NCBI RefSeq assembly: GCF_988242995.1
Contig: NZ_OZ547043.1
Reading direction: 5' to 3' (one strand)
DNA length: 64,000 nucleotides
The position numbers and the translations under genes are program-made. Below, piece by piece: positions 1-2,314 of the stretch; within the stretch, counting starts at the first letter, position 1, and the number at the start of each line of letters is the position of its first letter. The notes under the pieces were generated by a model. It was not told where the DNA came from, did no database searches, and saw nothing but the letters and a program-made list of their open reading frames with translations.

Positions 1-333
1 TTGTGATAGTCACGGCCCAGCGCATAACGGCTAACATAGCCGAGTTTGGGGTTTTTCAGCGTGCTGGCAAATGCGGCGTTAGCAGGAAGGTAATTCATCC
101 GCACGCTGATCACGCGCAGCGTACCGGGCAATAACTCATGGGGGCGAGCGCGCAGCATACCGTGACGCGCCATCCAGTCCATTTCGCCGTGGTATTGTTT
201 GTCCAGCCATGCTTGCAGTTTGGGCTCGGACTCGCTGAGATCGGTATCGGTAATACCTACCTGCTGAAAGCCCAGTTCCAGCCCCCACTGTTTAATTTTT
301 TGCGCTAATTGATTGAGATCGAGGGGCTCTGAC

Positions 334-335
<2 letters not shown>
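1..335 (-). CDS. queG: epoxyqueuosine reductase QueG, N-terminal part only (gene continues past window start)
   Basis: Reverse complement of 1-335 translates from ATG (rc of 333-335) as [32 protein letters not shown]...; absent from ORF track because no stop lies in the window. Confidence 0.85.

Positions 336-2314
<1,979 letters not shown>

What the first reader, a model, noticed from the sequence alone, without database searches (positions are those of the whole stretch)
331..336. Divergent queG and nnr start codons appear to overlap
With the starts that reproduce the expected protein N-termini, the queG ATG (reverse complement of 333-335) and the nnr ATG (334-336) share two nucleotides. If both are correct, each gene's promoter and RBS must lie inside the other gene's coding sequence, which is unusual for divergent genes. 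Alternatively nnr starts at the downstream ATG at 349 ([10 protein letters not shown]...).
Basis: seen in the sequence. Interest (0 to 1): 0.3.

Follow-up and report, generated by a model that had tools for sequence, protein, structure and literature searches.

The report
queG and nnr start codons overlap
Two back-to-back E. coli genes (queG and nnr) really do begin on the same four letters, CATG, and each carries the other's on-switch inside its own first codons; this layout is rare and ancient, but it is already in the reference annotation and in published transcript maps.

Summary
Window 333-336 reads CATG: the queG ATG is the reverse complement of 333-335 and the nnr ATG is 334-336, so they share 2 nt. 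RefSeq annotates the same overlap in MG1655 and other strains.

Comparison of 80 Enterobacteriaceae species favours ATG 334 as the main nnr start.
- An in-frame ATG sits at that position in 75 of 80 species.
- A strong Shine-Dalgarno, GAGGGG (321-326), lies 7 nt upstream (-7.2 kcal/mol, against -3.2 for ATG 349).
- Codon 6 (349) is not a start codon in 21 of 80 species.
- Against this, four Kosakonia species carry a 1-nt insertion and must start at the codon-6 ATG. Some initiation at 349 in E. coli is therefore not excluded.

Published RNA maps place the queG transcription start at about window 359-360, inside nnr codon 9. They place the nnr-operon start 388 nt upstream of its ATG, inside queG. 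That gives a 413-nt antisense overlap, which has been recovered in vivo as double-stranded RNA.

I find an extended -10 element, TGGTATACT (375-367, minus strand), exactly 7 nt upstream of that queG start. It is built from nnr codons Ser-Ile-Pro and is conserved down to 45% protein identity.

No direct data on translation starts could be retrieved. Verdict: real, rare, already known, of modest interest.

The parts
1..335 (-). 5' part of queG (codons 1-111; the rest of the gene lies left of the window)
   Evidence: Translation. Pfam PF08331 QueG_DUF1730, E=6.5e-15. RefSeq queG annotation. tblastn aligns residues 1-111 end to end in all 80 related loci.
333..335 (-). queG start codon (ATG, read as CAT on the + strand)
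   Evidence: CAT is conserved in 80 of 80 loci. It is the first in-frame canonical start downstream of the mapped transcription start at 359/360; the next in-frame ATG is codon 52 (sequence read).
334..336 (+). nnr start codon (ATG); shares 334-335 with the queG start codon
   Evidence: RefSeq. In-frame ATG at this position in 75 of 80 species and moved by one codon in one more.
334..1881 (+). nnr coding sequence (515 codons plus stop)
   Evidence: Pfam PF03853 YjeF_N (residues 40-199) and PF01256 Carb_kinase (residues 257-496).
321..326 (+). Shine-Dalgarno GAGGGG for nnr ATG 334; antisense of queG codons 4-5 (CCC CTC, Pro-Leu)
   Evidence: Duplex with the 16S rRNA 3' end is -7.2 kcal/mol, with a 7-nt spacer. 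GAGGGG is present in 75 of 80 species.
349..351 (+). Alternative in-frame ATG (nnr codon 6): a possible minor second start
   Evidence: Weak Shine-Dalgarno, -3.2 kcal/mol. The codon is ATG in 31, GTG in 16, TTG in 8 and a non-start codon in 21 species. It is the only possible start in 4 Kosakonia species that carry a 1-nt insertion. Logan gene calls use it, giving 510 aa.
367..375 (-). Extended -10 promoter element for queG (TGGTATACT on the minus strand); antisense of nnr codons 12-14 (AGT ATA CCA, Ser-Ile-Pro)
   Evidence: Exact in 77 of 80 species, with 3 near-variants. Third codon positions of nnr codons 12-14 are invariant against a background of 0.56. The last T lies 7 nt upstream of position 360, next to the mapped start. 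A TGnTAnnnT motif is found in the same place in 6 of 7 distant divergent loci.
359..360 (-). queG transcription start
   Evidence: Conway et al. promoter coordinate 4392114 (U00096.2), as quoted in supplement file 1 of PMC7373196, equals window 359. The offset was checked with a dsRNA read that spans the CATG and with NC_000913.3 coordinates. Position 360 is predicted from the -10 element.
336..360 (-). queG 5' leader (about 25 nt), antisense of nnr codons 1-9; weak Shine-Dalgarno (GGU, -2.2 kcal/mol) and a U-rich tract
   Evidence: ACGGACCAT (337-345) is identical in 68 of 80 species, including synonymous sites.
1..333 (+). Distal part of the long nnr-operon 5' leader, antisense to queG codons 1-111; its transcription start lies about 54 nt left of the window
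   Evidence: Conway plus-strand operon with P=4391701 and T=4408049, overlap 4391701-4392114 (413 nt). A -10-like TAAAAT lies at L083 1666-1671 and is invariant in the 20 sequences displayed, 19 of them from other species.
1..354 (.). Region recovered in vivo as double-stranded RNA (sense and antisense transcripts of queG and nnr)
   Evidence: p19-captured cluster S-361 at 4391754-4392109 and Lybecker dsRNA MS-212 at 4391717-4392100 (U00096.2); 22-nt reads of both strands span the CATG (PMC7373196, main text, supplement).

Best explanation
This is a genuine head-to-head overlap of two coding sequences whose expression signals are interleaved. queG (minus strand) starts at ATG 335-333. nnr (plus strand), the first gene of the long nnr-tsaE-amiB-mutL-miaA-hfq... 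operon, starts mainly at ATG 334-336. The two start codons share the central AT of CATG. Because there is no intergenic DNA, each gene carries the other's signals in its own first codons. The nnr ribosome-binding site GAGGGG is queG codons 4-5. The queG promoter is an extended -10 element, TGGTATACT, that needs no good -35. That promoter, its transcription start (about 360) and its 25-nt leader are nnr codons 1-14. The nnr operon is transcribed from a start 388 nt upstream, deep inside queG. The two mRNAs are therefore complementary over about 413 nt, form double-stranded RNA in the cell, and are cut by RNase III. Shown: the sequence geometry, the annotation, the conservation, the published transcript ends and the published dsRNA. 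Inferred: that ATG 334 is the main nnr initiation site, that TGGTATACT is the working queG promoter, and that the antisense overlap has any regulatory consequence.
For: Geometry and annotation.

nnr start at 334:
- An in-frame ATG is present in 75 of 80 species. In S. enterica arizonae (L018) the ATG is lost (CATT) but a new ATG appears in the next codon.
- The Shine-Dalgarno duplex is -7.2 kcal/mol for 334 against -3.2 for 349.
- Codon 6 is CTG, CTA, GAG, ATA or CTT in 21 of 80 species, which leaves no other start before the YjeF_N domain.

queG start at 335:
- CAT is invariant in 80 of 80 loci.
- QueG residues 1-111 align end to end everywhere.
- It is the only in-frame start on the mapped mRNA.

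Embedded signals:
- Third-position conservation is 0.93 for queG codons 2-12. The maximum of 88 background windows is 0.82.
- It is 0.96 for nnr codons 2-4 and 1.00 for codons 12-14. The maximum of 100 background windows is 0.86, and permutation gives p<1e-5.
- TGGTATACT is exact in 77 of 80 species. Its -7 T lies 7 nt from position 360, and the published start is window 359.
- A TGnTAnnnT motif persists in 6 of 7 distant loci. It always uses AGY for Ser, xTA for Ile/Leu and CCA for Pro.

Against: - No direct initiation-site evidence was obtained. The supplements of five ribosome-profiling or N-terminomics papers either lacked the genes or were cut off or not held.
- Four Kosakonia species have a 1-nt insertion that takes the CATG ATG out of frame, so nnr must start at the codon-6 ATG. 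They nevertheless keep CATG and GAGGGG. Conservation of these letters is therefore not explained by the nnr start alone, and the five extra residues are dispensable.
- 55 of 80 species have ATG, GTG or TTG at codon 6.
- Another gene caller (Logan records) picks the 510-aa form.
- Both starts keep the Pfam domain, which begins at residue 40.
- The sampling of the 80 loci used MTDHTMKK as one of six search peptides, which is a mild bias.
- The promoter assignment rests on sequence plus one RNA-seq-derived coordinate. The simple sigma-70 scan, which requires a -35 match, found nothing.
Confidence: 0.75

Rival explanations
1. There is no coding overlap: nnr translation starts only at ATG 349 ([10 protein letters not shown]..., 510 aa). 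ATG 334 is then just part of the queG start context, and the two genes are separated by 13 nt.
For: ATG 349 exists in E. coli with a weak GGA Shine-Dalgarno-like element at a 7-nt spacing (-3.2 kcal/mol). Four Kosakonia species can only start there and still keep CATG. Logan gene calls give 510 aa. The domain is intact either way.
Against: Codon 6 is a non-start codon in 21 of 80 species, where ATG 334 is the only start before the domain. The strong Shine-Dalgarno is placed for 334 and would be 22 nt from 349. In L018 the loss of ATG 334 is accompanied by a new ATG one codon later, not by reliance on codon 6. Even under this reading both promoters and both ribosome-binding regions would still sit inside the other gene.
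Confidence: 0.1
2. Dual initiation: ribosomes start at both 334 and 349, giving 515-aa and 510-aa proteoforms of Nnr.
For: Both are ATG, in frame and 15 nt apart, and each has some Shine-Dalgarno complementarity. 55 of 80 species keep a canonical start at codon 6, and one lineage has switched to it completely.
Against: There is no evidence of selection for a start at codon 6: it varies freely among ATG, GTG, TTG, CTG, CTA and GAG. No experimental data were retrieved.
Confidence: 0.15
3. The tight junction is functional. The 413-nt antisense overlap, and the placement of the queG promoter on top of the nnr initiation region, reciprocally control queG and the nnr-led operon in an excludon-like way, through transcriptional interference and/or RNase III cleavage. 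On this reading the arrangement is not simply a neutral result of genome compaction.
For: [quoted passage not shown] The head-to-head arrangement, with a gap of -2 to 22 nt, is kept in 6 of 9 distant gene neighbourhoods examined; a seventh is divergent with a 73-nt gap. Nucleotide-level constraint extends about 40 nt to each side of the CATG.
Against: No expression data were examined that show reciprocal behaviour. Overlapping divergent transcripts are common (35% of divergent operon pairs) and most have no demonstrated function. The conservation is equally explained by each gene simply needing its own promoter and ribosome-binding site.
Confidence: 0.2

Closest known systems
Divergent (head-to-head) overlapping gene pairs in prokaryote annotations
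   Same: Two real protein-coding genes on opposite strands whose 5' ends overlap. This is the minimal palindromic case: CATG with 2 nt shared.
   Different: Many annotated divergent overlaps are suspected start-codon mispredictions. This one is supported by conservation of both starts across a bacterial family and by mapped transcripts. The class is very rare in E. coli: 2 of 663 overlapping adjacent pairs (PMC4161906). It is described as strikingly under-represented in prokaryotes generally (PMC2174442).
Overlapping divergent operons, or 'excludons' (Conway et al. 2014, PMC4161252; Lybecker dsRNA set; Huang et al. 2020, PMC7373196)
   Same: Divergent promoters are placed so that the 5' ends of the two transcripts are complementary (413 nt here). 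dsRNA is detected and processed by RNase III. This very locus is listed in those data sets.
   Different: Reciprocal regulation, the defining behaviour of an excludon, has not been shown for queG and nnr. In addition, the overlap here includes both start codons and both translation initiation regions, not only untranslated leaders.
Co-directional start/stop overlaps (ATGA, TGATG) with translational coupling
   Same: A very short overlap that involves a start codon and removes the intergenic space.
   Different: Those genes lie on the same mRNA and ribosomes pass from one to the other. Here the genes are on opposite strands and on different mRNAs, so no ribosomal coupling is possible. Any coupling must act through DNA (RNA polymerase traffic) or through antisense RNA.
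Extended -10 (TGnTATAAT) sigma-70 promoters
   Same: TGGTATACT has the TG at -15/-14 and 5 of 6 matches in the hexamer, including the key T-12, A-11 and T-7. It is correctly spaced from the mapped start, and there is no recognisable -35 (TCGGCG at a 17-nt spacing, read). By general knowledge, a poor -35 is typical of this promoter class.
   Different: The element lies entirely inside the coding sequence of the opposing gene and fixes its codon choice: AGT, ATA and CCA, with ATA/TTA/CTA in all lineages sampled. Its activity has not been tested directly.

Membership tests
Divergent overlapping coding-gene pair | Both partners are real protein-coding genes on opposite strands | tested here: met
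   Nnr matches PF03853 and PF01256. The QueG N-terminal fragment matches PF08331. RefSeq products are listed. Orthologues are found in all 80 loci.
Divergent overlapping coding-gene pair | The true translation start of the minus-strand gene (queG) lies at or beyond the partner's start | tested here: met
   ATG 335 is invariant in 80 of 80 loci. It is the only in-frame canonical start between the mapped transcription start (359/360) and codon 52. This is comparative and positional evidence, not a direct initiation assay.
Divergent overlapping coding-gene pair | The true translation start of the plus-strand gene (nnr) lies at 334, not 349 | tested here: inconclusive
   The comparative evidence favours 334: strong Shine-Dalgarno, ATG in 75 of 80 species, and codon 6 not a start in 21 of 80. 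However, Kosakonia uses the downstream ATG, and no ribosome-profiling or N-terminal peptide data could be retrieved.
Overlapping divergent operons / excludon | Divergent transcripts with complementary 5' ends | tested here: met
   Taken from published data, not measured here: Conway overlap 4391701-4392114 (413 nt), Lybecker dsRNA MS-212 and p19 cluster S-361, with reads of both strands across the CATG.
Overlapping divergent operons / excludon | Reciprocal (mutually exclusive) regulation of the two operons through the antisense overlap | not testable with these tools
   This needs expression measurements in promoter and RNase III mutants. None were found in the papers read.
Extended -10 sigma-70 promoter (for queG) | TGn immediately upstream of a -10 hexamer with T-12, A-11 and T-7, placed about 7 nt upstream of a mapped transcription start | tested here: met
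   TGGTATACT lies at 375-367 on the minus strand. Its -7 T is at 367, which predicts a start at 360; the published start is window 359. The element is conserved in 77 of 80 species, with 3 near-variants, and in 6 of 7 distant loci.
Extended -10 sigma-70 promoter (for queG) | Promoter activity depends on the element | not testable with these tools
   This requires mutagenesis with a reporter, or 5' RACE.

The most novel reading that the evidence does not exclude
The head-to-head interleaving could be a conserved regulatory device rather than mere compaction. RNA polymerase bound at the queG extended -10 promoter sits on the nnr initiation region, and the 413-bp sense/antisense duplex is cut by RNase III. 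Expression of the queuosine enzyme QueG and of the nnr-tsaE-amiB-mutL-miaA-hfq operon would then be reciprocally coupled, as in an excludon that links several tRNA-modification genes. As a corollary, the N-terminal extension of Nnr (about residues 1-20, outside the YjeF_N fold) and its conserved Ser-[Ile/Leu]-Pro motif would exist mainly because they spell the queG promoter and leader on the other strand. That would be protein sequence dictated by regulatory DNA.
Probability: 0.15. Interest if true: 0.5.

Novelty: already known. Interest (0 to 1): 0.3.

Why it matters
The locus is a clean, well-supported example of a class of gene overlap that is usually dismissed as an annotation error. It shows concretely how two genes can share their first bases. 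The ribosome-binding site of one is written in Pro-Leu codons of the other. An extended -10 promoter is written in Ser-Ile-Pro codons, which forces rare codons (ATA, TTA or CTA) over long evolutionary distances.

There are two practical consequences.
- Any engineered change near the 5' end of either gene, whether a deletion, a tag or codon optimisation, will disturb the other gene. Through nnr's position at the head of the operon it may also affect downstream genes such as tsaE, mutL, miaA and hfq.
- Gene callers disagree on the nnr start (515 aa against 510 aa).

Beyond that the finding is ordinary. The overlap is in the reference annotation, and the antisense transcripts are in published data sets.

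Tried and rejected
Direct start-site evidence was sought in the supplements of five papers, without result.
- Tetracycline TIS profiling (PMC4909307): no occurrences of the genes.
- TRAINSPOTTER N-terminomics (PMC13245402): the file was cut when stored, and a search of the held part found neither gene.
- Ribo-RET preprint (10.1101/520783): no supplements held.
- INRI-seq (PMC9825163): the only hit was an irrelevant off-target listing.
- Salmonella riboproteogenomics (PMC11005335): nothing.

Independent transcription-start maps were also sought.
- Cappable-seq (PMC4782308): no matching coordinates in the files held.
- Conway supplements: not held.
- Thomason et al. 2015: not held.

Other checks:
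- The simple sigma-70 and terminator scan of 1-900 found nothing. It requires a -35 match, which an extended -10 promoter lacks.
- A proximal nnr promoter between 290 and 330 was considered from the conserved block TTGCGCTAAYTGATTGAGATCGAGGGG. I rejected it because no hexamer there has both A-11 and T-7 (read), and because the dsRNA and operon maps place the start 388 nt upstream.
- An upstream in-frame GTG for queG (380-378) was rejected. It lies upstream of the mapped start and is not conserved; most species have GAG there.
- TTG 313 as an nnr start was rejected. It has no Shine-Dalgarno (+1.9 kcal/mol) and is absent in several species.
- An extended palindrome around CATG was looked for by eye and is not present.
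- The PDB holds no E. coli Nnr structure that could show the native N-terminus.
- The search for homologous proteins returned only close relatives. Distant relatives were obtained through the representative-library search instead.

Full report
**What the window is.** The first 1.9 kb of the window matches 5425 of 5426 complete E. coli genomes at 97-99% identity. It carries, in order, the 5' end of queG on the minus strand, then nnr (formerly yjeF), tsaE and amiB on the plus strand. Window position equals the NC_000913.3 coordinate minus 4393732.

**Check of the observation.** Positions 333-336 read CATG. Read leftwards on the minus strand from 335, the frame gives [23 protein letters not shown]..., which matches Pfam QueG_DUF1730. 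Read rightwards from 334, it gives [15 protein letters not shown]... and a 515-codon frame ending at 1881, which matches YjeF_N and Carb_kinase. The two ATGs share positions 334-335. RefSeq annotates exactly this: MG1655 queG complement(4392928..4394067) and nnr 4394066..4395613, with the same geometry in strains 118UI and MC1061. The 90-nt junction is at least 95% identical in 5425 of 5426 complete E. coli genomes.

**Which starts are real: queG.**
- The CAT is invariant in 80 of 80 species-level Enterobacteriaceae genomes fetched with Nnr as bait.
- QueG residues 1-111 align end to end in all of them.
- Downstream, the next in-frame ATG is codon 52, and I see no in-frame GTG or TTG before it (read).
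- Upstream, the only in-frame candidate is GTG 380-378. It is not conserved and lies outside the mapped mRNA (see the transcripts section).

**Which starts are real: nnr.** There are three in-frame candidates: TTG 313, ATG 334 and ATG 349.
- TTG 313 has no Shine-Dalgarno (+1.9 kcal/mol) and is missing in several species.
- ATG 334 has GAGGGG at 321-326 with a 7-nt spacer. The duplex with the 16S rRNA 3' end is -7.2 kcal/mol, against -3.2 for ATG 349.
- Across the 80 species, an in-frame ATG sits at the overlapping position in 75.
- In S. enterica subsp. arizonae the junction reads CATT, and a new ATG occupies the very next codon.
- Codon 6 is ATG in 31 species, GTG in 16 and TTG in 8. In 21 it is a non-start codon (CTG 8, CTA 7, GAG 4, ATA 1, CTT 1). 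In those species the overlapping ATG is the only start before the catalytic domain.

**Evidence on the other side.**
- Four Kosakonia species share a 1-nt insertion just before codon 6. It puts the CATG ATG out of frame (a stop follows after 20 codons), so nnr must start at the codon-6 ATG.
- These species still keep CATG and GAGGGG. Conservation of those letters therefore cannot be credited to the nnr start alone.
- The Pfam domain begins at residue 40. The closest solved homologue, T. maritima TM0922, aligns only from residue 41. Either start gives an intact enzyme.
- Annotation pipelines disagree: NCBI records give 515 aa and Logan gene calls give 510 aa.
- My estimates: about 0.8 that 334 is the main start in E. 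coli, about 0.15 that both starts are used appreciably, and about 0.1 that only 349 is used.

**Where the transcripts begin.** This rests on published data that I did not measure.
- The supplement of Huang et al. 2020 (PMC7373196) lists this locus as p19-captured dsRNA cluster S-361, at 4391754-4392109 in U00096.2 coordinates. It is of the "5' divergent" type and ranks among the 20 most abundant coding-gene clusters.
- The same row quotes the Lybecker dsRNA MS-212 (4391717-4392100).
- It also quotes the Conway et al. operon overlap 4391701-4392114 (413 nt). The plus-strand operon runs from promoter 4391701 to terminator 4408049.
- I fixed the coordinate offset with a 22-nt read, CAUGACGGACCAUACAAUGAAG, listed at 4392087, and with the NC_000913.3 annotation. 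Window position equals the U00096.2 coordinate minus 4391755.
- On that offset, the queG transcript starts at window 359, inside nnr codon 9. The nnr-operon transcript starts about 54 nt to the left of the window, 388 nt upstream of its ATG and inside queG.
- Reads of both strands span the CATG itself.
- Conway et al. describe the yjeF(nnr)-led operon as the most complex in their data set, with 14 genes and 8 promoters. They report that 136 of 388 divergent operon pairs have overlapping 5' ends, by 168 nt on average.

**The embedded signals.**
- The minus strand at 375-367 reads TGGTATACT. This is an extended -10 element (TGn plus TATACT). Its -7 T is at 367, which predicts a start at 360, one base from the published coordinate.
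- There is no recognisable -35. By general knowledge, that is normal for extended -10 promoters, and it explains why the simple scan found nothing.
- On the plus strand these nine bases are nnr codons 12-14, AGT ATA CCA (Ser-Ile-Pro).
- The element is exact in 77 of 80 species, and the other three have near-variants.
- The most-common-base fraction at third codon positions is 1.00 for nnr codons 12-14 and 0.96 for codons 2-4. The background mean is 0.56, and the maximum over 100 windows is 0.86.
- The same fraction is 0.93 for queG codons 2-12. The background mean is 0.68, and the maximum over 88 windows is 0.82. Permutation gives p<1e-5.
- About 40 nt on each side of the CATG is therefore constrained at the DNA level beyond what the proteins need.
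- The queG leader (360 to 336) is U-rich and has only a weak Shine-Dalgarno (-2.2 kcal/mol).
- Outside the window, the mapped nnr-operon start is preceded by TAAAAT (L083 1666-1671). It is invariant in the 19 other species shown, which span the family, and it is spelled by queG codons AAT TTT AGA. By general knowledge, AGA is a rare Arg codon in E. coli.

**Depth of conservation.** I took nine distant Nnr representatives (45-74% identical) and looked up their contigs.
- One was not on record.
- Seven have queG divergent from nnr, with gaps of -2, -2, 1, 6, 16, 22 and 73 nt. Two have a different upstream gene.
- The CATG overlap recurs at 50% identity (L086) and at 45% identity (L091).
- The 74% relative reads CATGATG.
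- In six of the seven divergent loci a TGnTAnnnT motif lies 28-55 nt upstream of the queG start. The variants are TGGTATACT, TGGTAAGCT, TGGTAGGCT, TGGTAAACT (twice) and TGGTAGACT.
- The motif is always the antisense of Ser-[Ile/Leu]-Pro, written as AGY, xTA and CCA.
- Consistent use of ATA, TTA or CTA and of CCA is what a promoter constraint predicts. A purely protein-level constraint would not predict it.

**How it most likely works.**
- Both genes are expressed from promoters inside the partner gene.
- nnr is translated from a long leader using a Shine-Dalgarno written in queG's Pro-Leu codons.
- queG is transcribed from an extended -10 promoter written in nnr's Ser-Ile-Pro codons, and it is translated from a short, Shine-Dalgarno-poor leader.
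- The two RNAs pair over about 413 nt and are processed by RNase III, as the cited papers show.
- It is not known whether this pairing, or collisions between RNA polymerases, regulates either gene. I give the regulatory (excludon-like) reading about 0.2.

**Comparison with what is known.**
- The locus belongs to the very rare class of divergent coding overlaps. One census counts 2 divergent pairs among 663 overlapping adjacent pairs in E. coli. The class is described as strikingly under-represented across prokaryotes.
- It also belongs to the common class of divergent operons with overlapping 5' transcripts.
- It is not comparable to co-directional ATGA overlaps, because the two genes are on different mRNAs.
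- The overlap itself and the antisense transcripts are already public.
- As far as the papers I read go, this analysis adds three things. First, comparative support for both starts. Second, the identification of the conserved extended -10 element and Shine-Dalgarno as codons of the opposite gene. Third, the depth of conservation.

**Verdict.** The feature is already known, and its interest is modest (0.3).

Noticed in passing
window 1853-1881: nnr and tsaE overlap co-directionally by 29 nt: the tsaE ATG is at 1853 and the nnr stop ends at 1881. RefSeq annotates the same overlap.
   Followed up: no
window 343-345 (minus strand ATG), reading to 292: The first AUG on the mapped queG mRNA is out of frame with queG. 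It opens a 17-codon ORF ([17 protein letters not shown]) that runs across the queG start codon. It has no Shine-Dalgarno (+1.5 kcal/mol). The CAT is kept in 72 of 80 species and lost (CTG) in 8, Buttiauxella and close relatives. It may be a by-product of the conserved ACGGACCAT block.
   Followed up: partly
window 317-320: A GATC (Dam methylation site) sits immediately upstream of the nnr Shine-Dalgarno, inside queG codons 6-7. It is present in most of the 80 related junctions. No role was examined.
   Followed up: no
L083 1666-1680 (MG1655; about 54-68 nt left of the window start): The published nnr-operon transcription start is preceded by TAAAAT, which is spelled by queG codons AAT TTT AGA. 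The block GGTCTAAAATTCA is invariant in the 19 other species displayed, and it includes the rare AGA Arg codon. No convincing -35 was seen.
   Followed up: partly
L052, L057, L063, L065 (four Kosakonia species), junction region: A shared 1-nt insertion (CCATAGAGATG or CCATAGAAATG against E. coli CCATACAATG) takes the CATG ATG out of the nnr frame. It leaves a 20-codon upstream ORF with the strong Shine-Dalgarno and moves the nnr start to the codon-6 ATG. Other Kosakonia species (L035, L038, L043) keep the E. coli arrangement.
   Followed up: partly
nnr codons 12-14 (window 367-375) and the equivalent in L084-L091: The conserved Ser-[Ile/Leu]-Pro motif in the N-terminal extension of Nnr lies outside the Pfam YjeF_N domain. 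It is always written AGY-xTA-CCA, the antisense of TGnTAnnnT. The protein motif may therefore be imposed by the queG promoter rather than by Nnr function.
   Followed up: partly
protein clusters P0001 and P0002, and others: Public gene calls for the same locus differ. NCBI records give Nnr as 515 aa (507 aa in Enterobacter), while Logan assemblies give 510 aa (502 aa). In other words, one pipeline avoids the divergent overlap by choosing the downstream start.
   Followed up: no
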